Part shown: piece by piece, positions 1,759 through 52,893 of the stretch
How the letters are laid out: each line of letters begins with the position of its first letter
Position numbering within the stretch: position 1 is the stretch's first letter
DNA from: a virus
Taxonomy: Duplodnaviria; Caudoviricetes
DNA length: 55,573 nt
Direction: 5' to 3' (one strand)
IMG/VR virus record: IMGVR_UViG_3300018083_000009
Coordinates: 1 to 55,573 of that record
Notes under the pieces: model-generated
What the model was told of the DNA's origin: nothing
The model's input: only the letters and a program-made list of their open reading frames with translations
The model's database searches: none
Translations under genes and position numbers: made by a program

Positions 1759-1956
1759 ATGGCTACGCTTAATGTTTCTATGCCGGAAGAAGAGTGGGTT
1801 AAAGTTCTTAACATGCTTGCAACGTTTCCGTTTAAGGATATCGCTTCAACAATGCAACAGATGCAACAGCAGTTGCAGATGCAAGTTGAACAAGCGAAAC
1901 AACAGCCTACAATGAAACAGCCCAATGGTGCCGAGGTTCATGCGCCAGGAGCGTAA
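1759..1956 (+). CDS. Small Gln-rich hypothetical protein between tail-fibre genes (possible fibre assembly factor)
   Basis: ATG 1759 preceded by AGGAG; position between two fibre genes. Confidence 0.55.
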   Translation: MATLNVSMPEEEWVKVLNMLATFPFKDIASTMQQMQQQLQMQVEQAKQQPTMKQPNGAEVHAPGA

Positions 1957-1961
1957 TTAAA

Positions 1962-22929: not shown

Positions 22930-22930
22930 T

Positions 22931-24120: not shown

Positions 24121-24127
24121 GTTGGCT

Positions 24128-24158: not shown

Positions 24159-24174
24159 CTTAAAGGGATGACAA

Positions 24175-37190: not shown

Positions 37191-37211
37191 TCCAAACGAT
37201 AGGAGTTTGAA

Positions 37212-37760: not shown

Positions 37761-37784
37761 CAACTAAACGCAGGAGTAACGATT

Positions 37785-38780: not shown

Positions 38781-38790
38781 GAGGCAAACA

Positions 38791-39015: not shown

Positions 39016-39035
39016 TTAAGTATGGAGTAACAACG

Positions 39036-39479
39036 ATGCCGTTTGGTTTCTTTGTAGAAGTTGATCGTGGTCACCCTGGCAATGAATTGCCAGGTAGCGG
39101 TCATATTGATAATTCGTTGCCTCCTGGCGTGCCACCGCTAGGTAGCACTTTGCCAATTCCACCACCTGGGATTTGGCCACCACCTTCGTTTGGACATCCG
39201 ATCGTTCCGATTGGTCCTGACAATACTTTGCCAGTTCAGCCCGGAACAATCTGGCCACCTCCTGGTGCACCGAATCGACCAGGGAATGAATTGCCCGGTC
39301 AGCCTAGCACGCCAGATAATTCGTTGCCTTCTAGTAAATTCTGGGTCGTTGCTGGAATCCCTGGTGTTGGTTGGCGTTATGTTTGTGTCGATCCTTCACT
39401 GACTGTTGGTAACGCATTGCCAACAACACCGGCAAGACCAGGACAAGCATTGCCACCGACTGCCGCACCCAAAACGTAA
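39036..39479 (+). CDS. Proline-rich repeat protein
   Basis: PGNELPG, DN(S/T)LP and IWPPP repeats; GGAG RBS. Confidence 0.7.
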   Translation: MPFGFFVEVDRGHPGNELPGSGHIDNSLPPGVPPLGSTLPIPPPGIWPPPSFGHPIVPIGPDNTLPVQPGTIWPPPGAPNRPGNELPGQPSTPDNSLPSSKFWVVAGIPGVGWRYVCVDPSLTVGNALPTTPARPGQALPPTAAPKT

Positions 39480-39489
39480 GGGAAACGAA

Positions 39490-40230
39490 ATGCTTAAATA
39501 CGCACTGGCAACGGTGTCACTCCTGGCGCTCTATGCGCCAGGAGCAAATGCGGATATCATTTCGACTTTGGGATATACCGCTAATGCAAACACTTCCGCA
39601 CTTAGTTTGATTGCAGTTCCACCACCAGGAAATCAACCACTCAACACACCTTGTTTGATTTGCGGAACGAGTCAACCGCAACAACCGGCAAACTTTGGTT
39701 ACAATAATTACCAGCAGTCTGGTAATCAAACGTTGTTTAGTGATTTCTCTACTGCTGCGACTGGCAATCAAAGTCTTGGAACGGATGTGGAAGGAACGCC
39801 ATATCTCGTTTCGTTTCTGCGAGCATTCTTGCTTAGTCAACTTGACTTGAATGGTCGTCTCGATGTCGGTATTGATGTTAATACCGGAACGGGTCAAGGA
39901 CCGGAAGTGTTGCAACGTTTTGTTGTAGTTGATGTCGTAAACAAAACGATACTCGCAGACTACAATCCGGTTGGTGGAACACCGTTGCCAACAGCTAACA
40001 ATGGCACTGGTTTTCCTGACTACATATTGAGTGGATTTAATATCGACCGTAACGATCTTTCACCAAACTCACAAATCGAGTTTTATGCAAGATGGTCGAA
40101 TGCTAGTGACGGTGCTGAATCGTTCTTTCTAGTTCCGGTTCCGGGACAACAGGATGTGCCAGAACCAATGAGTCTTGCACTTATGGGTATGGGTCTTCTC
40201 GGACTTGGAATGATTCGTCGTAAGGCATAA
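39490..40230 (+). CDS. PEP-CTERM sorting-domain surface protein
   Basis: Signal peptide MLKYALATVSLLALYAPGANA; C-terminal VPEPMSLALMGMGLLGLGMIRRKA. Confidence 0.9.
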   Translation: MLKYALATVSLLALYAPGANADIISTLGYTANANTSALSLIAVPPPGNQPLNTPCLICGTSQPQQPANFGYNNYQQSGNQTLFSDFSTAATGNQSLGTDVEGTPYLVSFLRAFLLSQLDLNGRLDVGIDVNTGTGQGPEVLQRFVVVDVVNKTILADYNPVGGTPLPTANNGTGFPDYILSGFNIDRNDLSPNSQIEFYARWSNASDGAESFFLVPVPGQQDVPEPMSLALMGMGLLGLGMIRRKA

Positions 40231-40237
40231 CATTACG

Positions 40238-40756
40238 ATGGTCGAAGCAATAAACTTACCTGCACCTGTAGGATTGCCACCACACTATGATCAAGTGGTT
40301 GCAATCCTACAACTATTCTTTCCACAGTTCTTTGACCCTGACTCTCCACAGTTTGTTCCACCTGATACAATGAATCTACTCATTGCGATTGCGGAAGAAG
40401 CTAGACCGTGGTGTCTATCGGAAGATCGTCAGAATTTTGCACAAGCTATGTATACAGCTTATTTAGTTGGAGTGCGAAACGATACAAGTTCCGGTGAGTC
40501 ATCCATTCCGGTATCAGGGCCAATTACCTCTGAGAAAGAAGGTGATATTCAAGTTACATATGCATCTAGTTCAAGTGGTTCCACTAAGGTATCGGATCGA
40601 CCATCATCCGATCCATGGGATGCGTGGAACAGACTCTATACTCGTTGCAGTCGAGGAGCGATCTTGACTCGCTATGGTGATCCAATGAAAAGCGCAAACG
40701 ACTTGACAACGATTCTTTACATTCGCGCGTATAACGTTTGGTATCCGATATGGTAA
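40238..40756 (+). CDS. Head-tail adaptor (DUF4054-like)
   Basis: FPQF, ITSEKEGDIQVTY; synteny. Confidence 0.7.
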   Translation: MVEAINLPAPVGLPPHYDQVVAILQLFFPQFFDPDSPQFVPPDTMNLLIAIAEEARPWCLSEDRQNFAQAMYTAYLVGVRNDTSSGESSIPVSGPITSEKEGDIQVTYASSSSGSTKVSDRPSSDPWDAWNRLYTRCSRGAILTRYGDPMKSANDLTTILYIRAYNVWYPIW

Positions 40757-41286
40757 CGGTAATCGATAGAGACTTAGGATATAAACGAATCTTCAAAGAT
40801 ATAAAAGATCTTGACGGTAAAGGAGTCAAGGTCGGAATAATGGGTGGCGAGTCTGTTGATGGGGTTGCAATAGTTGATTATGCGGTATGGAATGAGTTCG
40901 GAACCAAAACAATTCCGGCTAGACCGTTTATGCAACATACCGCAGATTTGCACGCAGACGAAACGATTCAATACTCAGGATTTCTTATTGGCAGAATGAT
41001 CGATGGCGCAATTAAACCGGACAAGTTACTTAAGAATCTAGGGGAATTTTATGTTAAGCGAATGAAGATGGTCGTTCGCAATGCGAAAGAATGGGCACAA
41101 GAAAACGCTGATTCTACTATCGCCCGTAAAGGTTCTAGTTCACCACTGATTGATATTGGTCGTATGGTTAACGCAATTGATTATGAAGTAACGAGTGGTG
41201 GAAAAACTGGTGGTTCCGTTGGTGGAATAACTAAAGCAGTTGGCGCACTTGGAAAAGTTGCCGGTAGATTTGCTGGTTTAAGATAG
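40750..41286 (+). CDS. Neck/tail-completion protein
   Basis: VKVGI, NEFGT..IPARPF, NA.STI.RKGSS.PLID.G. Confidence 0.8.
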   Translation: MVTVIDRDLGYKRIFKDIKDLDGKGVKVGIMGGESVDGVAIVDYAVWNEFGTKTIPARPFMQHTADLHADETIQYSGFLIGRMIDGAIKPDKLLKNLGEFYVKRMKMVVRNAKEWAQENADSTIARKGSSSPLIDIGRMVNAIDYEVTSGGKTGGSVGGITKAVGALGKVAGRFAGLR

Positions 41287-41295
41287 GAAACAATC

Positions 41296-41571
41296 ATGTC
41301 GCAAACGAATACAATGCCTCCGATGCCGCGCACTGGACCGGAATGTGGTAACGATCCTGCAATGTGTCGAATCACAAACGGTTCGCATGTGCAAGATCCG
41401 ATCATCGATTGGGCTCCGGAATATGACGGAACCGGAAAGATGACTAACAGCGACCCGAATACTTTCATTCGCACAATTGTTTGTTCCGCTTGTGGTGGTG
41501 AATGGGAAGATACAACGGCTCCCGGCAGTCCTCCCGCCAGGAGAACTGTTACGGAACCTAATACTTTATAA
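41296..41571 (+). CDS. Small Cys-containing hypothetical protein
   Basis: C....C and CSAC motifs; AGGA RBS. Confidence 0.6.
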   Translation: MSQTNTMPPMPRTGPECGNDPAMCRITNGSHVQDPIIDWAPEYDGTGKMTNSDPNTFIRTIVCSACGGEWEDTTAPGSPPARRTVTEPNTL

Positions 41572-41984
41572 TGGCAACTTCGTTTCGAATGCCGTTTCAA
41601 ATTCTGCGCCGTGACATAGGCTATTGGGTAAACGGCGTTTATAAAATGAGTGACCAAGCTGGAACAATTCAAACCATTATGGCAACGGTTCAAGTTCCAA
41701 GCGAGCGTGACAAAACAAGTATCGATGCGACCCCGTATGGAAGACGGGCTGCACGCTACATAAAAATTTATACCGACACCAGATTGAATAGCGTCAATCA
41801 AGAGATTGAAGGTATGCGCCAAACTTACGCTGGCGATATATTTTATTACGATAACTCACAGTATTTGGTATTCGGCGAATCAGACTTCACCATGTTAGGC
41901 CGGTCGCGTAATACAAAGGTTTCGCACTGGCGCTATTATGCTTGTGAAACAATAGAAGGTTTTGTTTCGGAAACGGCTCCATGA
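41571..41984 (+). CDS. Head-closure protein
   Basis: G.WVNG.Y, IKIYT; synteny. Confidence 0.7.
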   Translation: MATSFRMPFQILRRDIGYWVNGVYKMSDQAGTIQTIMATVQVPSERDKTSIDATPYGRRAARYIKIYTDTRLNSVNQEIEGMRQTYAGDIFYYDNSQYLVFGESDFTMLGRSRNTKVSHWRYYACETIEGFVSETAP

Positions 41985-42547
41985 TCGACAAGCTTTGGAC
42001 ACTTCTCGATTATGTAATGAATCATGCAAACAATAAAAATGTGCCGATCATATGGTCATATCAAAACGCTGCAAGAATAAAGAAGCCATATATCGTTCTC
42101 GATTATACAACGAATGATTTGCCGAACTTCGATATTCAAGATCAATACGTTGATGAAAGTGGAATCAGGATTCTTTCCTCCTGGCGTAGAGTTGTTGCAG
42201 ACGTGCAATTTTACGATGCAAAAGATTCGATGCAACTAGCGAACTTTATGGCCATGGCTTTAGCAACTGAAGTATCGTTGCTAAAACAATGTGAACTTGA
42301 TTGCTCTATCGGAAATAGATTGTTCTTTCAGCGTATACCTGCATTGCTTAATAATTCACAATATGAAGATCGGGCAATCTATCAGTTTGATTTTTACTAT
42401 ACCGAATTGTTTAAAGAAGACGTTGGCTTTATTGCAACTGTAATCGTTGAAGGAAACTATACCGGAAGCCTAACCGATGTAAAATGCACCGAAACGATAT
42501 CTGTTCCGTATCCATCACATCCCATCGTCATCCCGCCAGGAGAATGA
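41981..42547 (+). CDS. Tail terminator/neck protein
   Basis: IIWSYQNA...KPYI; synteny before the sheath. Confidence 0.7.
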   Translation: MIDKLWTLLDYVMNHANNKNVPIIWSYQNAARIKKPYIVLDYTTNDLPNFDIQDQYVDESGIRILSSWRRVVADVQFYDAKDSMQLANFMAMALATEVSLLKQCELDCSIGNRLFFQRIPALLNNSQYEDRAIYQFDFYYTELFKEDVGFIATVIVEGNYTGSLTDVKCTETISVPYPSHPIVIPPGE

Positions 42548-42550
42548 TTT

Positions 42551-42832
42551 ATGGCTGGTAAACGTCGAACAGCTTGCGATATATTGATGAATCCTCGTAA
42601 GAAAGATAGGTCGCGTGGAAGGCAACGAACTTCAATCGACCCTAAAATGATGTTGGTGGCTTGCCGAAAACTTGCGGCTGATTTGCGAGCTGAGTCCACT
42701 GCTGGTTGGCCACCGGTTAAATTACGTGATGGAAACAGCATAAGTCGTGCCGATGCTGCCATATCGATGGACCAACAAGGGGATAGGTGGGAGTTGGAAA
42801 CAACACCATTGTTAGCAAAAGCCAACACTTAA
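42551..42832 (+). CDS. Hypothetical basic protein
   Basis: ORF fills the gap; AGGAG RBS supplied by a motif copy. Confidence 0.5.
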   Translation: MAGKRRTACDILMNPRKKDRSRGRQRTSIDPKMMLVACRKLAADLRAESTAGWPPVKLRDGNSISRADAAISMDQQGDRWELETTPLLAKANT

Positions 42833-42848
42833 AATAGGAGTATGTCAC

Positions 42849-43991
42849 TTGGCGAATATCGATAGAATCGTTAAGGTATCTATTCAGCTTCGAACTGCTG
42901 GAATAACGGCAATCAACTTTAATGACTTGCTTTTGTTTGGTCCGTTTACTATTCCGGCACCAGCAACAGCGAAAGTTTTTATCATTACTGATCCGGATGA
43001 ATTGGTTGAGTCTTATGGCGTGCTTGTCGATGACCCAATGTATAAAGCGGCGCAGGTATTCTTTAGTCAGATACCACATCCGCCACGACTGTTTATCGGT
43101 CATGACAATAATGCCGCAGACGTAACGACTGATCTCATTGCGATTAATGATGAGAACTCGGATTGGTATGGTATCTGTGACGTTTTGCATGATGGAACAA
43201 GAGCCGTTGACATTGCGGAATGGGTTGAAGCGCACGAGAAAATTTTCGTTACAGTCTTGAATGATGCTGGTGATATTTCCGCACCTGCAACAGATACAAC
43301 TTCCGTTGCCCATTTGCTTATGCAAGGTAATTTCTTCCGCACCGCATGGTGGTGGAATCCTAGCTTAGAAGAGTTTCCAGATGTTGCGATTGCAGCTAAA
43401 TCGTTCACCAAATATCCTGGCCAGGAGACATGGGCTAATCAACGTTTATCAGCTGTAATGTCTACTTTCCTAAGTGAAACGATTGCACAAAACATCTTTG
43501 CTAAGAATGGAAACACTTTCGAACCGTTCCGTAATATCAGTATTACTCAGAATGGCAAGACTTCTGGCGGTGAATGGATCGATGTGATTCGTTTCCGTGA
43601 TTGGTTGTGTGAAGAAATTAAAGTTCGCATCTTTCAACAAATGGTCGATAACCGTATTCCATATACTGATCCCGGTATCGCAATCATTCGTTCGAGATTG
43701 CAACAAGCGCTAGACTTTGGTGTTAAACGCGGAGGCATCGCGCCACCGGAAGTTGATATCGAAGGTAACTATGTTCCGAGTTACGTTATTGAAGTTCCGC
43801 TTTCTATGACAATCTCGCCTAATGATAAAGCGAATCGAATCTTGCGAGACGTTTACTTTACGGCACGACTCGCTGGCGCGATTCACGTTGTCGAAATACA
43901 AGGAACTCTCACTTATGATAACCTTGCAGTAAGCGCGAGTTCTTCTAGTCCTACAGGTGGAATGACTCGTAACGTTTCTGTAGCAGCATAG
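42849..43991 (+). CDS. Tail sheath protein (DUF3383-type), TTG start
   Basis: ANIDRIV.V.I, YKAA..FFSQ.P.P, G.WIDVIR..DWL, RIPYTD.GI, ARLAGAIH.V.I.G. Confidence 0.92.
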   Translation: MANIDRIVKVSIQLRTAGITAINFNDLLLFGPFTIPAPATAKVFIITDPDELVESYGVLVDDPMYKAAQVFFSQIPHPPRLFIGHDNNAADVTTDLIAINDENSDWYGICDVLHDGTRAVDIAEWVEAHEKIFVTVLNDAGDISAPATDTTSVAHLLMQGNFFRTAWWWNPSLEEFPDVAIAAKSFTKYPGQETWANQRLSAVMSTFLSETIAQNIFAKNGNTFEPFRNISITQNGKTSGGEWIDVIRFRDWLCEEIKVRIFQQMVDNRIPYTDPGIAIIRSRLQQALDFGVKRGGIAPPEVDIEGNYVPSYVIEVPLSMTISPNDKANRILRDVYFTARLAGAIHVVEIQGTLTYDNLAVSASSSSPTGGMTRNVSVAA

Positions 43992-44003
43992 GAGGTAAAA
44001 TAA

Positions 44004-44447
44004 ATGGCTGGTATTCGCACTTATAATTCTGGACGCGTAACAGTGACTTTTAATGGTTTCAATATCACTGGTTTCGCTGATGGAACTTTCATCAACGTTA
44101 CGCAACAGAACGATGGTATAACGACTCAAGTTGGTGCTGATGGTGAATTGGCTAGAGCCATTAATACTGATCGTCGTTGCACTGTTACCGTTACGCTCCA
44201 ACAAACTTCACCAGCTAACGATTTCCTTTCGACCATGTATAGTGTTGATTCGTTAACGTGCGGTGGTCGTATCGGTCCTATATTAATTCAAGATTTGTGT
44301 GGCGATACAATGTTTGCCGCGAGTGACGCATGGATCGTTAAGCCCGCTGATATTGAGTTCGGTAAAGAAGTGTCTACGCGCGCGTGGCAAATTCATACTG
44401 GTGCTCCTGCAATTTATACTGTTGGTGGAAACGCAATTAGTAATTAA
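44004..44447 (+). CDS. Tail tube protein (DUF3277-type)
   Basis: ITGFADGTFI, VGADGE, TLQQTSPAN..LS. Confidence 0.9.
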   Translation: MAGIRTYNSGRVTVTFNGFNITGFADGTFINVTQQNDGITTQVGADGELARAINTDRRCTVTVTLQQTSPANDFLSTMYSVDSLTCGGRIGPILIQDLCGDTMFAASDAWIVKPADIEFGKEVSTRAWQIHTGAPAIYTVGGNAISN

Positions 44448-44455
44448 GGATTAAC

Positions 44456-44908
44456 ATGGCTCAGACAAGACATGAATTTATATTGGAGAATGGCAACAAG
44501 TTTTACATTCGAAAATATGATCCGTTTCTGGCACTAAGAATATTGGGAGAAGTTCAAAAGAAATTTTTGGTTGCGGTAACATCATTAATGGAAGCGCAAG
44601 ATGCAACATTAAGTCAAGAAGATAAGGAAAGGAACCTATTCAAAGCAATCGATCACATTTCTAAAAGTCTTGATGGCGACTCTATTGTTTCACTTGTCAA
44701 ACAAGTTCTAAACTCTGAGTTCATTTCGGTGTCGATTGAAGGTGAACCGCCAGAGAAGCTTGATGAAGGAATGCTTAATCGATCTACCGATAATTTATTC
44801 GATGTCGTATCAATTGTATTTGAAGTTTTAAAGGTTAACTATACGGAACTTTTTACGCGCGGGCGAACCCTTATTGGACAGGGAACGCCCCAAGAGGCGA
44901 TTCATTAG
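44456..44908 (+). CDS. Tail assembly chaperone
   Basis: Position between tail tube and tape measure. Confidence 0.75.
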   Translation: MAQTRHEFILENGNKFYIRKYDPFLALRILGEVQKKFLVAVTSLMEAQDATLSQEDKERNLFKAIDHISKSLDGDSIVSLVKQVLNSEFISVSIEGEPPEKLDEGMLNRSTDNLFDVVSIVFEVLKVNYTELFTRGRTLIGQGTPQEAIH

Positions 44909-45096
44909 GTGTTCTGCGTGAAGATTTCTTAGAAGAATTAATTATCTGGCGACCGATACTAGAAGGTTTAGTTTCAATTATGGAAGTTAAATCAGGTGAC
45001 GTTGATATTATTGACTTGATGAAACTAAATGCTTTGCTTGATATGAAAGCCGCAATGGAAAAGCGGGAAGCGGATAGAGTTAACAAGGGAAACTAG
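44839..45096 (+). CDS. -1 frame extension of the tail assembly chaperone (putative programmed frameshift)
   Basis: The -1 frame is open from 44839 to 45096 (..IWRPILEG..EVKSG..IIDLMKLNALLDM..) with no early ATG; candidate slip site CTT TTT at 44849-44854. Confidence 0.6.
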   Translation, partial: LYGTFYARANPYWTGNAPRGDSLGVLREDFLEELIIWRPILEGLVSIMEVKSGDVDIIDLMKLNALLDMKAAMEKREADRVNKGN

Positions 45097-45097
45097 T

Positions 45098-46993
45098 TTG
45101 GCAATTGTTCGCGAACTCATTACAGTATTAGGAACGGCGGTTGATACAACCGGTTTCAAACAATATGAAACCGGTATTGCACGAATCAAGGCTTTAGCAC
45201 TTAGTGTTGGCGCGGCATTTGGAATTGCTTTCGGCGCTGAAAAGATTATTGAGTTTGCCGATGGATTAGTTACGGCTGGTAAAGAAATTAATCGTTTACA
45301 CGCACAATTGAATATTATTGGTCGGCCATTTGACGATCTCGATGCATCACAAAAACGAATCTATGAAACCGCTCAATTGTTAGGCACTGAATACAAACAA
45401 GTTTTTAGCACCTTTAAAGATTTCTATAACGAAATGAGGGATACAAATATCCCAATTGAAAAAATTGAAAAGACCACTGAGAACATTTTTAAATCGTTAC
45501 AGATTGGTAAAGCAAATAGAGAAGAGACTGAAAGGGTTCTAGAATTATTTGATCGATCATTTAAACGCGGTGGAATGCGTTCCGTTGGCGTTGGAATGTT
45601 AAGTGATATCGCACCCAAAATATTTGATCAACTGAAACTATTTTATAAGACCGATGAAGATGGTTTGCGCGCTATGGCTAAAGCGGGAGATTTAACCGCT
45701 GAAAAAATCATTGCAGCATTGGGAACAATTCCTCCGGAAATAGAAAAGGAATGGGAGAAAGTTCCGCAGAAACTAGATAAACAATTCACCAAAATACATA
45801 ACGATTTAACTTTAGCAACTGCTGCGATTTATAAACTAACTGATGCATCGATATTCCTTGGACGAATACTTTGGTTTGTTTGGGTAACGTTCCGTAATTC
45901 AATTCTTTCGGTAGTGAAAGAATTAGGCGGACTTAAATCTACTGTTGAACTTTTAGGAATCGCACTAGCAGTTGCGCTTGGTCCTTGGCTTATTGGAACG
46001 TTGTCAACCGTGGTTGGATTGACACTTGCATGGGCCGCAGCAAACGCATTGTTACTTGGTAAATGGATTTTAATTGCTGGTGCTGTTGCTGGCGTTGCAA
46101 TTGCGATACAAGATTTAGTTTATTGGATTCAAGGTAAGGACAGTTTAATTGGTTCTTGGGTCGGATCATTTGATGACCTTGCGGAAAACTTTAAGAAGCT
46201 TGATATTTTCTCAGGCTTTAGATTATTTGATGCAGCAACGAAAGGGAATTGGGACGAGTTCAGAAAAGAATGGGACATATTCAAAACGAATCTTCCAGCT
46301 GAAGTTTTAGCTATCACAGCTACGATTGCACTTATTGGTGGTGCATTTGTAACAATTGGTCCGATCATCGCGGGTGTGCTTAAAGGAATCATTGAAGGAT
46401 TGTTTAAAACTAAAGTCGCTGCGGTAGCAGCGGAAACGGCAATTAAAGGTGTTGGTGGTGCAGGCACTGCTGCGGTAGGTGGTGCTGCTGCCGCAACGAC
46501 TCCAAAGAGTGGAGCATTTAGCAATCTTCTAGGTTTCTTTGCTACACTATTACCATTGTTTTTGACTGGGTCGGCTGGTGGTGAAGATCCTGTATCTAGT
46601 GAACAGAAAAATCAAGAGTATATTCAAAATAGAAAAACGAATGGACCCGATATTATAGATCGTTATATCGGAGGACTTATCGATTTATATAATTTACCAA
46701 GTAAATTTGGAGAGCGCATGTGGCTTGGTCCAGAATCGTTACGAACTCCATCAGTCGTTCCGAATGTATCGCCAGGAGCATTTAATCCGTTAGCTGGACC
46801 GCGAGTCCAGCACACAGAAATTAATCCATCACTAGTTCAAAACAATAGTATCAGAGTAGAAACGCTTCTTGATTCCGCACAAATTGGTTCGGCGATTCAA
46901 AGTCAAATGAATGTCTATGGGGAGCAACTAATCAGTGGAATTTCTAGACAGATTAATACAGCGGGACCACGTGCGGAACAACCCACACAGTGA
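45098..46993 (+). CDS. Tape measure protein (TTG start)
   Basis: AIVRELIT.LG N-terminus, Ala/Gly-rich helical body with TM-like segments; synteny. Confidence 0.85.
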   Translation: MAIVRELITVLGTAVDTTGFKQYETGIARIKALALSVGAAFGIAFGAEKIIEFADGLVTAGKEINRLHAQLNIIGRPFDDLDASQKRIYETAQLLGTEYKQVFSTFKDFYNEMRDTNIPIEKIEKTTENIFKSLQIGKANREETERVLELFDRSFKRGGMRSVGVGMLSDIAPKIFDQLKLFYKTDEDGLRAMAKAGDLTAEKIIAALGTIPPEIEKEWEKVPQKLDKQFTKIHNDLTLATAAIYKLTDASIFLGRILWFVWVTFRNSILSVVKELGGLKSTVELLGIALAVALGPWLIGTLSTVVGLTLAWAAANALLLGKWILIAGAVAGVAIAIQDLVYWIQGKDSLIGSWVGSFDDLAENFKKLDIFSGFRLFDAATKGNWDEFRKEWDIFKTNLPAEVLAITATIALIGGAFVTIGPIIAGVLKGIIEGLFKTKVAAVAAETAIKGVGGAGTAAVGGAAAATTPKSGAFSNLLGFFATLLPLFLTGSAGGEDPVSSEQKNQEYIQNRKTNGPDIIDRYIGGLIDLYNLPSKFGERMWLGPESLRTPSVVPNVSPGAFNPLAGPRVQHTEINPSLVQNNSIRVETLLDSAQIGSAIQSQMNVYGEQLISGISRQINTAGPRAEQPTQ

Positions 46994-47082
46994 ATATTTT
47001 TGTATCAGACATGGAATGTATTATAAGACTTATAACTGTCTATCTTGTATCCAAGAGAAAACAATTCTTTGTGAGAAACTAA

Positions 47083-47799
47083 ATGAGCGGAATAATAAGC
47101 AGTATCGGAAGTAGTCTTAGCAACGTTACTGGTAGCGGCTTGCTTTCGATGTTCTTTCATATTGGCCAAAGTAAGTTGGGGTATTTAAGTCTTGATATTC
47201 TCGTATCGGAAAGTTTAGAACTTCCCAGTGAAGTAACAAAATATCCGGTTGAAGATGGTGATGAAGATGTATCAGATCATATCACGGCTGGTAATGAAGA
47301 ACTTTCAATCAATGGTGCGATAGCGTCAGGTTCCGCATTCGGAATTGAGTTCGGTATTCTTTGCTATTCTAAAATGATCGATGCGGTCGATCAACTAAGG
47401 AAGATGCATAAGGAAAGAAAAACATTTACCGTTGTAACTGGTCTCGGTAAGTATGAAGAAATGGCTTTTACAAAGCTGTCGCTTGATCGAAACAATAGTC
47501 CGCAGACTGGTGGCCAATGGTTAACTATTAATGCTACGCTGCGTAAGATCAGAAAGGTTTCACTTAAACAAGCTGACTTACCGCCAGATCAAGTTAGTGG
47601 TGATTCTGGCGGTGGAAGTGGAAGTGAGAACGTTAAAGGAAAGTCGGGCGCTACAGGTAAGAAAATTGGTCAAGAAACTACTGATTATGATCCAAGTAAA
47701 AAGAGTTATGCTAAATACAAAGCCGAAACAAAATTGCCATGGGCCGTTGGACCACAACCTTATAAACCACCAGCAGTTCCGAAGATGGAATTAAAATAA
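47083..47799 (+). CDS. Baseplate/tail-tube initiator (Dit-like)
   Basis: VTKYPVEDG...SDHI, V.TGL..Y..M motifs. Confidence 0.8.
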   Translation: MSGIISSIGSSLSNVTGSGLLSMFFHIGQSKLGYLSLDILVSESLELPSEVTKYPVEDGDEDVSDHITAGNEELSINGAIASGSAFGIEFGILCYSKMIDAVDQLRKMHKERKTFTVVTGLGKYEEMAFTKLSLDRNNSPQTGGQWLTINATLRKIRKVSLKQADLPPDQVSGDSGGGSGSENVKGKSGATGKKIGQETTDYDPSKKSYAKYKAETKLPWAVGPQPYKPPAVPKMELK

Positions 47800-48137
47800 T
47801 GTTTACTATTGTTGTTGCAGACTTAAATAGTCAAGCAATTGAATCTACGCTTGATGATATTTTATTTTATCTTGTTCTGGATTGGAATCAATCTGGTGGT
47901 TATTGGACAATGGGGATTCGTAACTCTGGTTACCAAACAGTTATTGATCGTATATCATTATCAGTTAATTATCCGTTGACGAAACAATTCAAATATTCGG
48001 ATATGCCGCCAGGAGAGTTGATCGTTGAAACATTTGATTTCAGAAGTGGACCAATTCCAAGAGATGGATTTGCTTCTGGCAAATATTTTCTTAACTATTA
48101 TACAGAGCAAGATGTGAGAATCGCTAATGCTGTTTGA
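47799..48137 (+). CDS. Small baseplate protein
   Basis: L.WNQ..GYWTM.I; synteny. Confidence 0.7.
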   Translation: MFTIVVADLNSQAIESTLDDILFYLVLDWNQSGGYWTMGIRNSGYQTVIDRISLSVNYPLTKQFKYSDMPPGELIVETFDFRSGPIPRDGFASGKYFLNYYTEQDVRIANAV

Positions 48138-49305
48138 TAGAGTATATCGTTTATTAGTTGGAAAGAAAGGCGATGCTAAAGGAATCGAAATAACAGACTT
48201 GCGTATTGAGTTCGATATCGAAAAGAGCGCGAAGAAAAATCCGAACAAAGGTTCAATCAAGATATATAATTTAGCTAAAGCAACGAGAACAGAACTAGAG
48301 AAACCAGGAACTCGTTGCGTTTTATATGCGGGTTATAAAGATCAAGATGGGCCACAACTTATCTTTAACGGAGATGTAACATTTGCCTGGACTCAATTTA
48401 AGTTACCGGATGTTATTACAGAACTGGAACTTGGTGACGGTGCATCAGAAATACGCGACACGACTATATCGGTTGGCTATGATAAAGGTGTCAAATCGAA
48501 ACAGATACTTCAAGATGCGGCAAAGAAAATGGATACCCCGTTAGTTGTCCCAAGTAACTTAGCAGAACGAGTTTGGGAGCATGGCGTATCTTTCTTTGGT
48601 CCGGTTAGAACTTTACTCGATAAGGTTACGAAAGGATCGAACTCTGAGTGGTCGATACAGAACGGCAACCTTCAAGTGATTGAGAAAGGAATGGTAACGA
48701 CTAGACAAGGAATTGTTTTGTCCGCTGACTCTGGTTTAATTGGTTCTCCGGAACGAGAACGTGCATCTAAAGATGGTGCTTCAAGTAAGGAAACCAGTAA
48801 GGCGAGTGCAACGAATACAGCTAAAGGTGGCTCGCCTAAAGGACCAGCAACATCGTTACCGACTCCACCTATTCCACCTGTAGCGAGTAGACCGCCATTT
48901 GATGCAAGTGGTGGAACTCCTGTAATGAGAAAGACCGACAATGATAATGACGAAGATGAAACAGAAGATCGTGAAGGCGGAGATAAAATTAAATCATCGG
49001 AACCAGCAAAAGGAATCGATGGTTGGAAAGTTAAGACGTTGCTTATGCCAACGCTAAATCCCGGTGATAGAGTGAAGCTAGAAAGTCGTTCTGTTAAAGG
49101 TATATTTCGCATTCAAGAGTTAAAACACAAAGGTGATAACTGGCAAGGTGATTGGCAAACTGAAATGAAACTAATTGATCCAGCTGCACCAATCTCCGAT
49201 GAAAGTAAATCGGCTAAGAGTTCTAAAGGTGGCCATGCGAAACGAGGTGATGTTGAGAAGCCAGTTGTTCGTAAGTATCTCACTGAAGAAGAGATAAGTA
49301 GTTAG
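48127..49305 (+). CDS. Baseplate hub protein with a low-complexity insertion
   Basis: LRIEFDI.K, IKIYNL, L.AGY, WSIQNG, GLIGSP, LL.P.L.PG, HKGD. Confidence 0.82.
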   Translation: MLFDRVYRLLVGKKGDAKGIEITDLRIEFDIEKSAKKNPNKGSIKIYNLAKATRTELEKPGTRCVLYAGYKDQDGPQLIFNGDVTFAWTQFKLPDVITELELGDGASEIRDTTISVGYDKGVKSKQILQDAAKKMDTPLVVPSNLAERVWEHGVSFFGPVRTLLDKVTKGSNSEWSIQNGNLQVIEKGMVTTRQGIVLSADSGLIGSPERERASKDGASSKETSKASATNTAKGGSPKGPATSLPTPPIPPVASRPPFDASGGTPVMRKTDNDNDEDETEDREGGDKIKSSEPAKGIDGWKVKTLLMPTLNPGDRVKLESRSVKGIFRIQELKHKGDNWQGDWQTEMKLIDPAAPISDESKSAKSSKGGHAKRGDVEKPVVRKYLTEEEISS

Positions 49306-49314
49306 GATAAAACA

Positions 49315-50013
49315 ATGTTTACTTCGCTTGTTGAATCGATACAGTTGATGATTGAATCATCGTTGTCTGATATCAACACCAATGCGCCAGGAGAAATTGT
49401 TTCATATAATGCCGCAACGAATCGTGCGGTAGTTAAACTATCAACGCCAAAGAAACTAGATAATGGTGAAGTATTAGAGCCACCTAAGATCGTTGAGGTT
49501 CCGGTTGTATTTAATGCATCGGGTGGTGGTAATGCATCGTTTACATTCCCACTTAAACCGGGTGATCCAGTAACGTTATCGTTTCAGCAACGATCAATGG
49601 AAGGTTATCTAAAAGGAAGTAAAGATGCGCCGGATGATCCTAGACAATTTGACCTTTCTGATTGCGTGGCTATTCCTGGCGGCGGCCATACTGGCACTGT
49701 TGGTCATTCTGATAACGTAGTATTAAAATTTGGTGGCGCTAACGTGACTCTTAAACCAGATGGAACAATTATATTTGGTAACAGTATTGGTAGCATGACA
49801 ATTGATCCTGGCGGTAATATTCGTTTGAAAGGTTCCTCGATTCATGTTGATGCTGGTGGGCAACAATTTGATTTAATGAGTGCTGGTGGTCAAATGAAAC
49901 TTAAGGGAAACTCAATTGATGTTGAAGCTGGCGGAAAGAACTTTAATTTGGAACACCATCAACATCTAAATACCATGCCGGGAGTTGGACTATCGGGAGA
50001 ACCGAATCCATGA
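49315..50013 (+). CDS. Baseplate spike (Gp138-like)
   Basis: VPV.F, TFPLKPGD, R.FDLSD..AIPG; C-terminal HQH metal site. Confidence 0.85.
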   Translation: MFTSLVESIQLMIESSLSDINTNAPGEIVSYNAATNRAVVKLSTPKKLDNGEVLEPPKIVEVPVVFNASGGGNASFTFPLKPGDPVTLSFQQRSMEGYLKGSKDAPDDPRQFDLSDCVAIPGGGHTGTVGHSDNVVLKFGGANVTLKPDGTIIFGNSIGSMTIDPGGNIRLKGSSIHVDAGGQQFDLMSAGGQMKLKGNSIDVEAGGKNFNLEHHQHLNTMPGVGLSGEPNP

Positions 50014-50450
50014 ACTTTGATATCGCACTAAATCGAATAACTCATGATCTGGAATTTCATTCTGCACGCGATTATAAGTTGCCGATACCGTCAAACATAA
50101 CCAGTGCAGACGTAAACAAGTTTCGCATATGGGCAATTGATGGTGCTGATAAAGTAGCGCAACAAATTAAAATAAACCTTCTATCGTTTCTAGGAGAATG
50201 GTTTCTCGATGTACGATATGGAGTTCCTTACCTTGAAGAAATACTCGTTAAGAACCCTCGCCTTGCTAGCGTTGAAACTATTTTGCGGAACCATATTGGG
50301 AGCGTTCCTGACGTTGTTCGTATTGATTTCTTTGGTATGGATTGGAGTCGTAAGGATCGTTCGTTACGTGTGGAATTTGCCTGCGAAACTACTTACGGTC
50401 CTATTCGCGAAAGCGTAAAATTGGAGGTGACACCTTATGTCAGAGGTTAA
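50010..50450 (+). CDS. Baseplate wedge/sheath initiator
   Basis: VAQQIKI.L..FLGEWFLD..GVPY. Confidence 0.85.
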   Translation: MNFDIALNRITHDLEFHSARDYKLPIPSNITSADVNKFRIWAIDGADKVAQQIKINLLSFLGEWFLDVRYGVPYLEEILVKNPRLASVETILRNHIGSVPDVVRIDFFGMDWSRKDRSLRVEFACETTYGPIRESVKLEVTPYVRG

Positions 50451-50613
50451 AGAGTTCTTTGCATATGGGCAATGGTGGGATAAAGAAGTGATCGAAGCTT
50501 CTGTTCCTTACACTCCTAGAATGAGTCTGGCACCAGCCCCTACTTTAGAAAACTATGAAGATCAACAAATGAATTTGTTTCGTAGAATGGAGGTTCTAAG
50601 TTATGTCGGGTAG
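50437..50613 (+). CDS. Small hypothetical protein (58 aa), not in ORF track
   Basis: GGAGG RBS; MSEVKEFFAYGQWW...; fills the gap before baseplate J. Confidence 0.5.
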   Translation: MSEVKEFFAYGQWWDKEVIEASVPYTPRMSLAPAPTLENYEDQQMNLFRRMEVLSYVG

Positions 50614-52084
50614 TCTGAATCCACTTGATTACGGAGTCTTACCGAGTGGATTTAGTCGGATGCGTATGCCGGAAATTCGACAGTCGATTATTGATTCGCT
50701 TACGCAATCGCTTGGCATCACTTTAGAAACGAGACCAGATTCCATCACGGGACAATTCATCGATGTATTCGCAGAACGAGAAGCCACTATGTGGGAACTT
50801 GCGGAAGCGGTTTATTTTGCTATGTATCCTATCTCTGCAACTGGTATTAATCTTGACCATTCTGTTTCTTTTGCTGGTGTTATAAGATTGTTCGCTGAGA
50901 AATCAACAGCATGGTGTGCTTGTTACGGAGTTGAAGGAACAGTTATTCCTGCTGGCAGTATCGTTCGTTCGCAAAACAGTCAAGATAACTTCTTGCTTGA
51001 TGCCACTATTACGATATCAAGACAGTTTACAATCGATACAACGGTGTATGTTAATACCGCAGTTGCTGGCCAGGAGTATTGGATCAGAGTCAACCAATCG
51101 ATTTATCGTTACGTTGCGGTAGCAAATGATTCAACTCTTATCATCGCGCAACATCTTGCGACGCAACTCCTGGCGAGTGGGTTGCAGGTTTCAATTGATG
51201 CTAATTATATTCGAATTTACGGTATCGAATCTATCTCATATGCGCTACAACTATCAGCCGATATCTTGATATTCAAGATTAGTTCCATCGGTAACTTTAC
51301 TTGTGAAGTTTATGGACCTGTTGATATTACCACGCATTCGATTAATCAAATCGTTTCGACTCTAGATGGTTGGGATGCGGTAGATAATTTAGTTGATGGA
51401 CACCTTGGTCGTAATCTGGAAACGGATGATGAATTGCGATTGCGTTATGATACCGGAGTGTTTCGTTTAGGTGCGGCAACATTGGAATCAATTAGAGCCA
51501 ACCTACAACAAAACATAACTGGAATAATTAGTGTTGAAGTTTATGAAAATATCGAAGACGTAACTGATGTTGACGGTAGACCACCACACTCAATTGAAGT
51601 CATTGCGTATGGTGGTGATCCACAAGATATCGCCGATCAAATATATTTAGTTAAGGCCGCTGGCATCGATACGTTTGGATCGTTGCAAGTTATGGTTACT
51701 GGAAGTTCTGGTTATCAACATGAAATTAATTTCAATAGACCAACACCGATTTATATCTGGGTTGAAGTTGACGTAACGTTATATAATGAAGAACAGTTTC
51801 CAGATGGCGGTATACCGCAAATTCAACTGATCGTAACGAACACTGGCAACGACTTTGGGATCGGCAAAGATGTTATACCGCAACGGTTCTTTGGTCCTAT
51901 TTACTCTAATGTTGCTGGTATTTCTAATCTGGTTATTCGCGTTGCCAAAACGACTGACCCTAATATCGTCCCCACAGTCGGTGACTTTAGTGAAGCAATC
52001 ATTCCCATTGCGGCACGAGAACTATCTCAATTCGATGTAACAAAAGTTGCAGTTGCAATCTTTGATGCAAGGCGCGGTCGATGA
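50603..52084 (+). CDS. Baseplate J-like protein
   Basis: ATG.NLD, G...ETDDELRLR, VYEN....D..GRPPHSIE, KAAGI.TFG. Confidence 0.9.
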   Translation: MSGSLNPLDYGVLPSGFSRMRMPEIRQSIIDSLTQSLGITLETRPDSITGQFIDVFAEREATMWELAEAVYFAMYPISATGINLDHSVSFAGVIRLFAEKSTAWCACYGVEGTVIPAGSIVRSQNSQDNFLLDATITISRQFTIDTTVYVNTAVAGQEYWIRVNQSIYRYVAVANDSTLIIAQHLATQLLASGLQVSIDANYIRIYGIESISYALQLSADILIFKISSIGNFTCEVYGPVDITTHSINQIVSTLDGWDAVDNLVDGHLGRNLETDDELRLRYDTGVFRLGAATLESIRANLQQNITGIISVEVYENIEDVTDVDGRPPHSIEVIAYGGDPQDIADQIYLVKAAGIDTFGSLQVMVTGSSGYQHEINFNRPTPIYIWVEVDVTLYNEEQFPDGGIPQIQLIVTNTGNDFGIGKDVIPQRFFGPIYSNVAGISNLVIRVAKTTDPNIVPTVGDFSEAIIPIAARELSQFDVTKVAVAIFDARRGR

Positions 52085-52893
52085 ACGAACTAACTAATAT
52101 CGATCTTGAAATATTAGAGCCGCTGGACTTTCCGCATGATCATGCGGAAGTCGCATGGTCGCATTTTCTTGCACAGCATGTTGGTAAGAAAAATACAGAA
52201 GCTTTCGTAAGATCGTTTTATCCTCCGATCAATATTCTTGATAAAGCATTAAATGATTTGTATACGTTACGTTGGTTGGATACTGCGGAAGGTGTTCAAC
52301 TAGATGGTATCGGATCGATCGTTGGTATAACGAGATCAGTTGCCAACTCAGTTTACTTACCGTTCTTTGGTTTCGCTTCACAAATAAGTGGACGTAGTTT
52401 TGGTGTCGCAAGGATGCGTCACAAACGCGAGCCATATGCACAAAGCACCATTCTTGGTGATACCGAATATCGAGCCATAATCTACTTGAAGATTTATCTT
52501 AATAACGGACATGGAACAGCAGAAGAATTAGTCCGCGCATTCAACACCTCTCTTAATGTAACGAGAACAAGAGTCGATGATGCTGGCAATGCCAATGCCA
52601 GAGTCTATATTAATGACTTCATTATGGACAACGATCCGCGTTCACAACTATTGGAGTTCATGATTCCTCGCGCTGCTGGCGTTAAGTTGTGGCCGCATTA
52701 TTATAATGCTGATTTTGTATTTGGTTTCTCAAATCAGAATATGGGTTATTACGGCTTTGATATCGGCATCCTCGCCAGGAGACCTGGAAGTAATATACCT
52801 CCGATTAATGTTACCATGTCGATATGGGACAGAGGCGAATCAATCTACGATAGCGGCAACTCTATCTGGGATCAGCGAGGTATTCCGGGATGA
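52081..52893 (+). CDS. Baseplate wedge protein (DUF2612-type)
   Basis: LDTAEGVQLD.IG.IVG..R, FFGF, IPRAAGV. Confidence 0.85.
   Translation: MNELTNIDLEILEPLDFPHDHAEVAWSHFLAQHVGKKNTEAFVRSFYPPINILDKALNDLYTLRWLDTAEGVQLDGIGSIVGITRSVANSVYLPFFGFASQISGRSFGVARMRHKREPYAQSTILGDTEYRAIIYLKIYLNNGHGTAEELVRAFNTSLNVTRTRVDDAGNANARVYINDFIMDNDPRSQLLEFMIPRAAGVKLWPHYYNADFVFGFSNQNMGYYGFDIGILARRPGSNIPPINVTMSIWDRGESIYDSGNSIWDQRGIPG

What the first reader, a model, noticed from the sequence alone, without database searches (positions are those of the whole stretch)
1943..52781. Genome-wide non-palindromic 9-mer CGCCAGGAG at ~1 per kb, written into genes in all six codon registers
Seen: about 52 exact copies (about 65 for the core GCCAGGAG; manual count). 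At uniform base composition about 0.4 exact 9-mers are expected on both strands, and fewer in this AT-rich genome. The motif lies inside conserved genes in every register: RQE (22510, 33096), xPG (27149, 34347, 48007), AR(R/S) (18862, 36857, 38231), LLA (18662, 26441, 29800, 30454), xPG from the reverse form (23468, 27305) and SWR (21720, 42178). It also forms inverted pairs, including a terminator (24132/24143) and an overlapping palindrome (17369-17382). It is nearly absent from the tail-fibre block and the HNH genes. Known: singletons in CDS plus inverted pairs in terminators at this density is the pattern of Neisseria/Haemophilus DNA uptake sequences, and dispersed phage sites also include mycobacteriophage stoperators and Chi. 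This sequence matches none of those I know. It contains a CCWGG (Dcm/EcoRII) core. Inference: a DNA-level self tag read by a phage or host protein (genome coating/protection, methylation target, recombination or uptake signal), possibly an undescribed system.
Basis: partly seen in the sequence, partly recalled or inferred. Interest (0 to 1): 0.92.

Follow-up and report, generated by a model that had tools for sequence, protein, structure and literature searches.

The report
Phage family hoarding a polar Chi-like motif
An uncultured phage and its relatives carry about one copy per kilobase of a short DNA word, pointed in opposite directions on either side of the DNA-packaging genes, which looks most like the recombination signal (Chi) of their unknown host, stockpiled to tame the host's DNA-end-chewing enzyme.

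Summary
The window holds 52 exact CGCCAGGAG copies and 65 copies of the core GCCAGGAG; about 0.1 and 0.4 are expected. A codon-preserving shuffle does not explain this: 44 copies lie in ORFs against a shuffle mean of 2.0. The window is a complete uncultured phage record. Five complete relatives (TerL 72-76% identical) carry 29-46 copies each, and 37 of 38 family loci carry the word. First-reader notes e1-6315781 and e1-6337282 show the scan saw this motif before on other DNA.

The new fact is polarity. Single copies switch strand about 1.1 kb upstream of the terminase gene, regardless of transcription direction. The reverse complement CTCCTGGCG(C/G) shares 7 of 8 bases with Pseudomonas Chi GCTGGCGC and with the candidate Chi GCTGGCGG. 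It lies on the strand that a RecBCD-type enzyme would read when entering a DNA end at that point.

Rec-less lambdoid phages are already known to hoard host Chi (PMC12315714). I read this as a new variant of that behaviour: non-lambdoid, two-armed, with a new word (confidence 0.6). The host, the termini and any enzyme response are all untested. Uptake-sequence, methylation and operator readings fit poorly.

The parts
1943..52781 (.). Dispersed motif set: 52 exact CGCCAGGAG and 65 GCCAGGAG, on both strands, about 1 per 0.85 kb.
   Evidence: codon-preserving null.
30918..31541 (.). 'Point 0', the interval where single copies switch strand. The last minus-strand 8-mer ends at 30917 and the first plus-strand copy starts at 31541. 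The interval covers the VapE 3' end and the 31338-31586 spacer upstream of the terminase genes. I infer that the packaging cut, and so the DNA ends, lie here.
   Evidence: One search shows a conserved TTGAAAT(C/T)G(C/T)T-like element and a T-run in this spacer.
31541..52781 (+). Right arm (packaging, head and tail genes). Single copies are almost all CGCCAGGAG on the top strand, so the Chi-like strand CTCCTGGCG is on the bottom strand. That orientation is active for an enzyme entering at point 0 and moving right.
   Evidence: (first 10 kb: 9 plus, 1 minus).
21305..30917 (-). Left arm (the 10 kb before point 0, end of the replication module; genes on +). Single copies are mostly CTCCTGGC(G) on the top strand. 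That orientation is active for an enzyme entering at point 0 and moving left, and it runs against the direction of transcription.
   Evidence: (last 10 kb: 3 plus, 10 minus).
33096..33104 (+). Deeply conserved copy inside TerL (codons R198 Q199 E200). It is present at the same place in all five complete relatives and in most family loci.
24132..24151 (.). Inverted pair forming a perfect GC-rich hairpin followed by a T-run, so terminator-like. It is one of 11 inverted pairs; the others are at 5926-5963, 9807-9830, 10862-10882, 12406-12426, 15528-15556, 17369-17382, 20362-20390, 25796-25822, 28610-28636 and 39520-39544.
31586..33860 (+). Packaging genes: a small ORF at 31586-32089, an ORF at 32082-32393, and the large terminase at 32505-33860.
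14696..15502 (+). Protein of no known family with matches in all six genomes: over most of its length in G001/G002 (36-38%) and over about 110-120 residues in G003-G005 (30-32%). Its N-terminal half weakly resembles winged-helix (MarR-like) DNA binders. It is the only candidate phage-encoded reader examined.
   Evidence: model with pLDDT 70; best Foldseek E-value 0.04 (weak).
26713..28104 (+). Two tandem D12-class adenine methylase genes found in this genome only. Each carries the motif at equivalent places (27149/27848 and 27305/28004).
52782..55573 (.). Largest motif-free stretch. It continues to 1942 across the record ends and includes a roughly 2-kb ORF-poor region and the first tail-fibre gene.

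Best explanation
The word is a Chi-type site. Read as 5'-CTCCTGGCG-3', it is the sequence at which the host's DNA-end-processing helicase-nuclease (RecBCD-like, possibly AddAB-like) stops degrading DNA and starts loading RecA. This phage family has stockpiled it.

Proposed mechanism. Only steps 1 and 2 are shown.
1. The word is kept at about 1 per kb by selection on number, not on place.
2. Near the packaging site, single copies are oriented so that the Chi-like strand has its 3' end toward that site on both sides.
3. The linear virion or packaging-cut DNA has its ends at that site (inferred).
4. An enzyme entering either end meets a correctly oriented site within about 1 kb. It is switched from destruction to recombination, which protects the genome and feeds recombination-dependent replication or concatemer formation (inferred).
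5. The phage needs this because it has no recombinase and no RecBCD inhibitor of its own (partly tested).

Inverted pairs give one active site for each direction and double as hairpins.
For: 1. Enrichment survives a codon-preserving null, and the word is the top octamer. Chi is likewise the top octamer in phages LLS, P1 and MD8.

2. The motif is conserved across deep divergence. G001-G005 (TerL 72-76%, MCP 64-68%, portal 49-57% identical) hold 46, 29, 45, 40 and 36 copies, and the reversed word occurs 0 times. Of 38 IMG/VR loci with TerL at least 63% identical, 37 hold the 8-mer. The 42 loci with TerL at most 55% identical hold 0-4 copies each.

3. Sites turn over. Only 10/25, 8/25, 5/26, 5/25 and 4/23 alignable sites of the window are kept in G001-G005.

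4. Polarity. In the 38 loci, single copies are 12 plus to 103 minus from -9 to -3 kb of the TerL start, and 155 plus to 21 minus from -1 to +6 kb. The switch falls at about -1.3 to -1.0 kb. In the six complete genomes the counts of 'active' to 'inactive' copies, by 5-kb distance from that point, are 50/4, 32/16, 25/16, 29/18, 30/16 and 7/4. The window alone gives 32/11, p=0.002. The flip happens inside co-directionally transcribed genes.

5. Likeness to known Chi. CTCCTGGCGC is the main 10-mer in the relatives (19-32 copies) and contains CTGGCGC, 7 of the 8 bases of Pseudomonas Chi. The window prefers CTCCTGGCGG (24 of 52), which matches 7 of 8 bases of the candidate Chi GCTGGCGG. The Chi-like strand is the one that is 'active' for entry at point 0, by the rule quoted.

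6. The left arm matches the published right-end, top-strand arrangement of LLS and MD8 when the terminase genes are placed at the left.

7. No RecT, ERF, lambda Gam or YqaJ was found in 0 of 5 genomes searched in six frames. No recombinase appeared among the 30 ORFs scanned against PHROGs, nor in the Pfam scan of 20 ORFs.

8. Concerted change of the word. Locus L201 has 0 GCCAGGAG but 7 CCCAGGAG, with the same strand flip. GCCAGTAG is co-used and polar in L211, L191 and L194.

9. Specificity is sharp. One-mismatch variants occur 0-2 times each, except at position 1 (G 7, T 6).
Against: - The host is unknown, so identity with a host Chi is untested.
- No bacterial genome rich in the word was found. 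The inverted-pair scan of genome contigs gave 120 stretches; 118 held the pair alone or with one further copy and two (L022, L102) held four copies, none near phage density.
- 368 genomes of one class and 401 evenly drawn genomes of the class of G379 exceeded the reversed-word control by about 12-fold or less where the word was frequent.
- The best-looking candidate, G399, has 61% GC, and the word ranks 1474th among octamers in a 179-kb sample.
- The physical DNA ends were not determined. The record is a circular-looking assembly with a 123-bp overlap.
- Density is roughly even along the genome, not clustered at the ends as in LLS and MD8. Only the orientation bias is concentrated there.
- Two-armed polarity has no precedent in the lambdoid cases I read.
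- The most conserved core, CTCCTGGC, extends 5' of the Chi-like part, and its fourth base C sits where known Chi octamers have their first G.
- I judged the likeness after seeing the word. My rough estimate of a chance 7-mer match to a known Chi is about 0.006; this is my own arithmetic, not a tool result.
- Pseudomonas phage POR1, a distant relative by capsid and baseplate, does not hoard Pseudomonas Chi (6 top, 4 bottom in 50 kb).
- Only four recombination or inhibitor families were searched. Rad52/Sak, Sak4, UvsX, Abc2 and gp5.9 were not.
Confidence: 0.6

Rival explanations
1. A phage-autonomous polar signal. The word is read by a conserved phage protein that tracks along DNA. It could be a long primase or initiation recognition site on the lagging-strand template of forks leaving an origin at point 0. 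It could instead be a KOPS-like guide for a phage translocase (SNF2 ATPase or terminase) toward or away from the packaging site.
For: Point 0 lies directly after the origin-binding-like and VapE primase-helicase genes in all six genomes, so an origin there is as plausible as a packaging site. With an origin at point 0, CGCCAGGAG lies on the lagging-strand template of both forks (my own geometry). Spacing of about 1 per kb resembles Okazaki spacing. PolIII alpha, SNF2, VapE and p14696 are found in all six genomes. p14696 has a weak winged-helix likeness. The concerted change of the word in L201 fits a phage reader as well as it fits a host reader.
Against: Orientation bias is 93% within 5 kb of point 0 but only about 62-67% further out; replication-linked signals should hold along the whole arm. 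No precedent was found for a 9-base primase site or a phage KOPS. That rests on my recall, and I ran no dedicated literature search. This reading leaves the likeness to Chi octamers on the matching strand unexplained. It also leaves unexplained the match to the published arrangement of Chi-hoarding phages.
Confidence: 0.2
2. A DNA uptake sequence or other 'self' tag shared with a naturally competent host, as in Neisseria or Haemophilus.
For: Density of about 1 per kb, use in all reading frames, and 11 inverted pairs of which one is terminator-like. These resemble DUS/USS as I recall them.
Against: There is strong polarity about one point, which uptake sequences are not known to show (recalled). 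No bacterial genome in those searched carries the word at such density. Only 1 of 11 pairs has a T-run. A virulent-looking phage has no evident need to be taken up.
Confidence: 0.04
3. A target of DNA modification, or of a repressor-type binder (stoperator-like), encoded by the phage: a methylation or protection site or an operator.
For: The word contains CCWGG. The window encodes three methyltransferases. Some copies sit in intergenic hairpins near gene starts. A winged-helix-like protein has matches in all six genomes.
Against: The D12 methylases occur in the window only, and MT-A70 in 3 of 6 motif-bearing genomes. Neither methylation nor operator binding explains a strand flip that ignores transcription direction. 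Most copies lie inside genes in all registers. Targets of restriction or modification are usually avoided by phages, not hoarded (established knowledge).
Confidence: 0.05

Closest known systems
Chi hoarding by phages that lack a recombination module: E. coli phage LLS, P. aeruginosa phage MD8 and relatives, and phage P1 (Zheng et al., Genome Res 2025, PMC12315714, abstract, introduction and sections 6, 15, 18 plus passages read; Bobay et al. 2013, PMC3784561, seen in the search listing only)
   Same: The word is the commonest octamer of the genome. Its density is far above chance (LLS 1 per 1.86 kb, P1 1 per 1.9 kb, MD8 32 copies; here 1 per 0.85-1.1 kb). It has a strong orientation bias relative to a DNA end beside the terminase genes. 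No recombinase or RecBCD inhibitor was found. [quoted passage not shown]
   Different: This is not a lambdoid phage. It has PolIII alpha, SNF2 and VapE replication genes and a baseplate-J type tail. The bias is two-armed, whereas the lambdoids are one-stranded with the left end thought to be covered by terminase. Density is even rather than end-clustered. The word is a new 8-9-mer, the host is unknown, and nothing has been tested at the bench.
Proteobacterial Chi octamers: E. coli GCTGGTGG, P. syringae GCTGGCGC (PMC5959072, passages read), candidate GCTGGCGG (PMC8022716, sections 10 and 16 read)
   Same: The shared core is CTGGCG followed by C or G, a 7 of 8 match to either octamer. All are non-palindromic, with sharp single-base specificity.
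   Different: The best-kept part here is CTCCTGGC, which has three extra 5' bases and a C where known Chi octamers have their first G. No enzyme has been shown to read it.
Neisseria DUS and Pasteurellaceae USS
   Same: Density of about 1 per kb, use in coding DNA in all frames, and inverted pairs.
   Different: These are host-wide signals without polarity about a point (recalled). Here the word is polar and was found enriched only in phage contigs.
FtsK-orienting polar sequences (KOPS) and SpoIIIE recognition sequences
   Same: Skewed 8-mers whose orientation flips at a defined chromosomal point.
   Different: Those are chromosomal, G-rich, and converge on dif (recalled). No FtsK-like reader or dif-like site was examined here.
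Stoperators of cluster A mycobacteriophages
   Same: Dozens of asymmetric sites spread through a genome of about 52 kb.
   Different: Stoperators follow the direction of transcription and lie mostly between genes (recalled). Here the flip ignores transcription, and 44 of 52 copies lie in ORFs.

Membership tests
Chi sites hoarded by a phage | The word is far over-represented and is the commonest octamer of the phage genome. | tested here: met
   the same holds in G001 and G003-G005; in G002 it is second to the overlapping word CGCCAGGA.
Chi sites hoarded by a phage | Orientation is biased so that the site is met from its 3' side by an enzyme entering at a genome end. | tested here: inconclusive
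   The bias about a point 1.1 kb upstream of TerL is very strong and has the right sense for the Chi-like strand. That this point is a physical end is inferred, not shown.
Chi sites hoarded by a phage | The word equals the Chi of the host. | not testable with these tools
769 bacterial genomes were screened without a clear candidate.
Chi sites hoarded by a phage | The phage lacks its own recombination module and RecBCD inhibitor. | tested here: inconclusive
   RecT, ERF, Gam and YqaJ: 0 of 5 genomes. No recombinase among the 30 ORFs scanned against PHROGs, nor in the Pfam scan of 20 ORFs. Other families and many small early ORFs of unknown function remain.
Chi sites hoarded by a phage | RecBCD or AddAB nuclease is attenuated, or recombination stimulated, at the site in one orientation. 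| not testable with these tools
   Needs a bench assay.
DNA uptake sequence (DUS/USS) | The same word occurs at about 1 per kb throughout the host chromosome. | tested here: inconclusive
   Not found in the genomes searched, but the host was not identified.
DNA uptake sequence (DUS/USS) | No orientation bias about a single point. | tested here: not met
Stoperator or operator sites | Orientation follows the direction of transcription, and sites lie mainly between genes. | tested here: not met
   The flip occurs within plus-strand genes, and 44 of 52 copies lie in ORFs.
Methyltransferase or R-M target | A cognate methyltransferase is present wherever the motif is kept. | tested here: not met
   D12 in the window only; MT-A70 in 3 of 6 genomes at E<1e-5.
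KOPS/SRS-type translocase guide | A polar 8-mer whose skew flips at a defined site and which is read by an FtsK/SpoIIIE-type motor. | tested here: inconclusive
   Polarity and flip are met. No reader was identified.

The most novel reading that the evidence does not exclude
The word is not the host's Chi. It is a phage-owned polar guidance code, read by a conserved phage protein: the VapE/primase pair, the SNF2 motor, the terminase, or the winged-helix-like p14696. It would orient replication priming or DNA translocation relative to the packaging/origin point, and it co-evolves with its reader, as the switch to CCCAGGAG in one lineage suggests. That would be a KOPS-like or long-primase-site system in a virus, which I have not seen described.
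Probability: 0.2. Interest if true: 0.85.

Novelty: new variant of a known kind. Interest (0 to 1): 0.62.

Why it matters
If this reading holds, three things follow.

1. Chi hoarding, known from lambdoid phages of enterics and a pseudomonad and from P1, extends to an unrelated family of uncultured soil and sediment phages. In this family it takes a mirror-image, two-ended form, which implies that both genome ends are exposed to the host nuclease.

2. The phage genomes report the Chi sequence of a host lineage that nobody has cultured or assayed. Chi is unknown for most bacteria (PMC8022716), so hoarded polar words in phage genomes could become a general way to read host Chi sequences, and a new host-prediction signal.

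3. The lineage in which every copy reads CCCAGGAG gives a natural experiment on how Chi specificity shifts.

Tried and rejected
Host search
- The inverted-pair scan of genome contigs found 120 stretches.
- Pattern counts in five bacterial genomes, in 368 genomes of the class of G006 and in 401 evenly drawn genomes of the class of G379 gave no clear enrichment.
- The five best ratios were re-counted with the 8-mer. G399 was sampled over 179 kb and found ordinary: 61% GC, with the word ranked 1474th.
- The reversed-word control proved a poor null in GC-rich genomes.
- A PEP-CTERM protein homologue search, cluster look-up and Atlas look-up gave no host name.
- tblastn of the tail fibre and baseplate protein gave only distant hits to phages of Gammaproteobacteria and others.
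- No tRNA was found.
- No RNA holder is listed among the sequencing runs. Read laying was not used, because only contigs are kept for the holders.

Close relatives among isolated phages
- None were found.

Other lines
- A literature search for the word itself found nothing relevant.
- I looked for analogous polar words in the 28 more distant TerL relatives of at least about 8.9 kb. GCCTCGG/CCTCGGCC looked polar but is explained by sense-strand codons. CTGCTCC in L222 and ACGGCTACGG in L221 lie on one side only. All were rejected as analogues.
- Pseudomonas phage POR1 does not hoard Pseudomonas Chi.
- Alignment of the point-0 spacer gave only a short conserved element and no clear cos-like symmetry.
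- The p14696 model (pLDDT 70) has only weak MarR-like matches. This does not identify a reader.
- GC and AT skew follow transcription and do not flip at point 0.
- Supplementary tables of PMC12315714 and PMC8022716 (Chi counts per phage, de novo motif lists) were closed and were not asked for. They may list related words.
Full report
WHAT IS THERE

The window is a whole virus record. It has a 123-bp terminal direct repeat, so its unique length is 55450 bp. GC content is 42%. It holds 52 exact CGCCAGGAG, 30 on + and 22 on -, and 65 copies of the core GCCAGGAG. Dinucleotide shuffles give 0.12 and 0.38. The word is the commonest 8-mer and 9-mer of the genome.

Shuffling synonymous codons within each of 86 greedy ORFs leaves a mean of 2.0 and a maximum of 7 over 300 shuffles. 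The observed count in ORFs is 44. All six registers are used.

Single-base variants are almost absent, at 0-2 each. The exception is the first position, with G 7 times and T 6 times. So the read unit is GCCAGGAG with a preferred C before it.

Eleven inverted pairs hold 22 of the 65 copies. They form strong hairpins, but only the pair at 24133/24143 is followed by a T-run. Motif-free stretches are 52774->1944, 2347-5926 and 43420-46771.

THE GENOME

It is a tailed phage. The gene layout is:
- Packaging and structural genes: large terminase 32505-33860, portal, Mu-F-like protein, capsid 37785-38780, tape measure 45098-46993, baseplate-J-like protein 50603-52084, and tail fibres 108-4202.
- A minus-strand block of small early genes at 6-13.3 kb.
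- A plus-strand replication block: MT-A70 methylase, PolIII alpha, SNF2 ATPase, HNH, two D12 methylases, an origin-binding-like protein and VapE.

A PEP-CTERM protein sits in the head module (TIGR02595, 22 bits against a cut-off of 16). Genes have Shine-Dalgarno-type sites. I infer a Gram-negative host with an exosortase.

The stretch is held by freshwater-sediment metagenome runs and in part by soil and sediment runs. No close isolate was found.

THE MOTIF BELONGS TO A PHAGE FAMILY

A scan of IMG/VR for the inverted pair found contigs of 52-53 kb with many copies. Five near-complete relatives hold 46, 29, 45, 40 and 36 exact copies, and none of the reversed word. They are only about 66-68% identical in DNA over 10.7-15.3 kb. 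Protein identities are 72-76% for TerL, 64-68% for the capsid protein and 49-57% for the portal.

Of 80 TerL-related loci, 37 of the 38 with TerL at least 63% identical hold the 8-mer, at up to 1.5 per kb. The 42 loci with TerL at most 55% identical hold 0-4 copies each.

Places are mostly not conserved. Only 10/25, 8/25, 5/26, 5/25 and 4/23 alignable sites of the window are kept in G001-G005. A few are deeply kept, such as the copy in TerL codons 198-200. So selection, or a drive, keeps the number of sites rather than their places.

First-reader notes show that the scan saw the same word in other genomes of this family.

POLARITY

A first-reader note on this genome suggested a strand flip near 31.4 kb. 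I tested it. I rotated all six complete genomes to start 1.2 kb upstream of TerL. Single copies, meaning those with no inverted partner within 45 bases, are then plus just after that point and minus just before it.

In the 38 family loci:
- From -9 to -3 kb of the TerL start: 12 plus and 103 minus.
- From -1 to +6 kb: 155 plus and 21 minus.
- The switch falls between about -1.3 and -1.0 kb.

These loci are not independent. Some are near-identical contigs, and five are pieces of G001-G005.

In the six complete genomes, the share of copies pointing the 'active' way is 50 of 54 within 5 kb of the point. It is about 62-67% further out. The window alone gives 32 against 11 (p=0.002), with 9 plus and 1 minus in its first 10 kb against 3 plus and 10 minus in its last 10 kb.

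The flip occurs between genes that are all transcribed rightward, so it is not a codon or transcription effect. In the window it falls between 30918 and 31541. This is the end of VapE and the spacer before the small ORFs that precede the terminase gene. The same gene order holds in all six genomes.

WHAT IT RESEMBLES

The reverse complement is CTCCTGGCG. The relatives extend it mostly to CTCCTGGCGC (19-32 copies). The window extends it mostly to CTCCTGGCGG (24 of 52). These contain CTGGCGC and CTGGCGG, which are:
- 7 of the 8 bases of the biochemically defined Pseudomonas syringae Chi, GCTGGCGC (PMC5959072, passages).
- 7 of the 8 bases of the candidate enterobacterial Chi, GCTGGCGG (PMC8022716, section 10).

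Zheng et al. (PMC12315714; abstract, introduction, sections 6, 15, 18 and passages) report that lambdoid phages without a recombination module hoard host Chi:
- LLS has 23 sites, 20 in the active orientation.
- MD8 has 32, all on one strand.
- P1 has 50.
- Chi is the commonest octamer of these phages.
- Sites lie mostly toward the right end when the terminase genes are drawn at the left.
- Chi is active when it is on the strand whose 3' end is at the entry end.

Applying that rule here, the Chi-like strand is on top to the left of point 0 and on the bottom to its right. That is the active sense for an enzyme entering a double-strand end at point 0 in either direction. If point 0 were instead a replication origin with an E. 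coli-like arrangement, the Chi-like strand would be expected on the other strand (my reasoning).

The family also lacks RecT, ERF, lambda Gam and YqaJ (0 of 5 genomes). No recombinase appeared among the 30 ORFs scanned against PHROGs, nor in the Pfam scan of 20 ORFs.

One lineage, L201, has replaced every copy by CCCAGGAG: 7 copies, none of the usual word, and the same flip. Another lineage co-uses GCCAGTAG, with 5 of 5 minus on the left arm. That is the behaviour expected of a word tied to a reader whose specificity differs between hosts or lineages.

BEST READING

It is a Chi-type site of the unknown host's RecBCD- or AddAB-like enzyme. The phage family stockpiles it and arranges it so that both genome ends are covered. 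I put this at 0.6.

Shown:
- Enrichment, family-wide conservation and turnover of places.
- Sharp specificity and polarity about a point next to the packaging genes.
- Likeness to Chi on the fitting strand.
- Absence of four recombination or inhibitor families.

Inferred:
- That point 0 is a physical end.
- That a host enzyme reads the word.
- That this protects the DNA and promotes recombination.

AGAINST THE BEST READING

- The host was not found. The pair scan of bacterial genomes gave 120 stretches, 118 with the pair alone or one further copy and two (L022, L102) with four copies, none near phage density.
- 368 genomes of one class and 401 evenly drawn genomes of another showed no more than about 12-fold excess over the reversed word where the word was frequent.
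- The best-looking genome, G399, proved ordinary.
- Density is even along the genome rather than clustered at the ends.
- Two-armed polarity is not reported in what I read.
- The best-conserved core extends beyond the Chi-like part.
- POR1, a distant relative with a known host Chi, does not hoard it.

RIVALS

1. A phage-owned polar code for priming or translocation, with an origin at point 0 (0.2). The geometry fits, and conserved phage proteins exist, including the weakly winged-helix-like p14696. But the bias fades with distance, and the Chi likeness would be a coincidence.
2. An uptake sequence (0.04). Polarity and the lack of any rich bacterial genome speak against it.
3. A methylation target or operator (0.05). 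The methylases are not conserved with the motif, and polarity ignores transcription.
4. The remaining 0.11 is for something I have not thought of.

NOVELTY

The kind is known: Chi hoarding by Rec-less phages, in print since 2013 and shown experimentally in 2025. New here are the phage family, the word, the density (about twice that of LLS), the mirror-image arrangement and the concerted change of the word in one lineage. I therefore call it a new variant of a known kind. Membership is not proven, because the host-Chi and enzyme features could not be tested.

Noticed in passing
window 53321-55331, and 1-123 = 55451-55573: A stretch of about 2 kb has no ORF of 60 aa or more (the longest is about 50 aa). 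It holds internal repeats that resemble the first 100 bases of the record (84% over 98 bases, and others). The record ends are a 123-bp direct repeat, typical of a circular-looking assembly.
   Followed up: partly
window, dispersed (word GCAACGAAACAATA(C), 7 copies): A second repeated word of 13-14 bases occurs 7 times. It may be a promoter or regulatory box of the early genes. Its positions were not mapped.
   Followed up: no
G003 and G004 (loci L173-L178), also L190, L192, L208, L215, L226: The palindrome CGTATATACG occurs 12-14 times per 11-21 kb locus, and CGTATATAC 25-26 times per genome, in one sub-lineage only. It looks like an operator or promoter element.
   Followed up: no
window 39406-40230 (+): A PEP-CTERM sorting-signal protein sits inside the head module. 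It has 279 homologues at E<=0.001, the closest (69-86% identical) mostly on contigs of 41-55 kb. An exosortase substrate carried by a phage is unusual and hints at the host type.
   Followed up: partly
window 26713-27411 and 27415-28104 (+): Two tandem D12-class adenine methylase genes are absent from the five relatives. Each carries the motif at equivalent places (27149/27848 and 27305/28004), which suggests a duplication after the sites arose.
   Followed up: partly
window 31338-31586 and the same spacer in G001-G004: A conserved element like TTGAAAT(C/T)G(C/T)T, followed by a T-run, lies in the spacer where polarity flips. It is a candidate packaging, origin or late-promoter element.
   Followed up: partly
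L221 (left of TerL) and L222 (left of TerL): Two more distant relatives carry other dense repeats on one side of the terminase only. L221 has ACGGCTACGG 16 times and GAGCGAGCCA 15 times. L222 has CTGCTCC 16 times in 3.9 kb. They look like arrays or iterons, not polar two-armed words.
   Followed up: partly
window, whole: CCWGG outside the motif is somewhat rare: 39 sites against about 62 expected from base composition.
   Followed up: no
L201, offset 591-599 of TerL: At the deeply conserved TerL site the variant lineage reads CCCCAGGAG. In the same frame this would change the otherwise invariant Arg198 codon, so the DNA word may have been kept at the cost of the protein. Not checked by alignment.
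   Followed up: no
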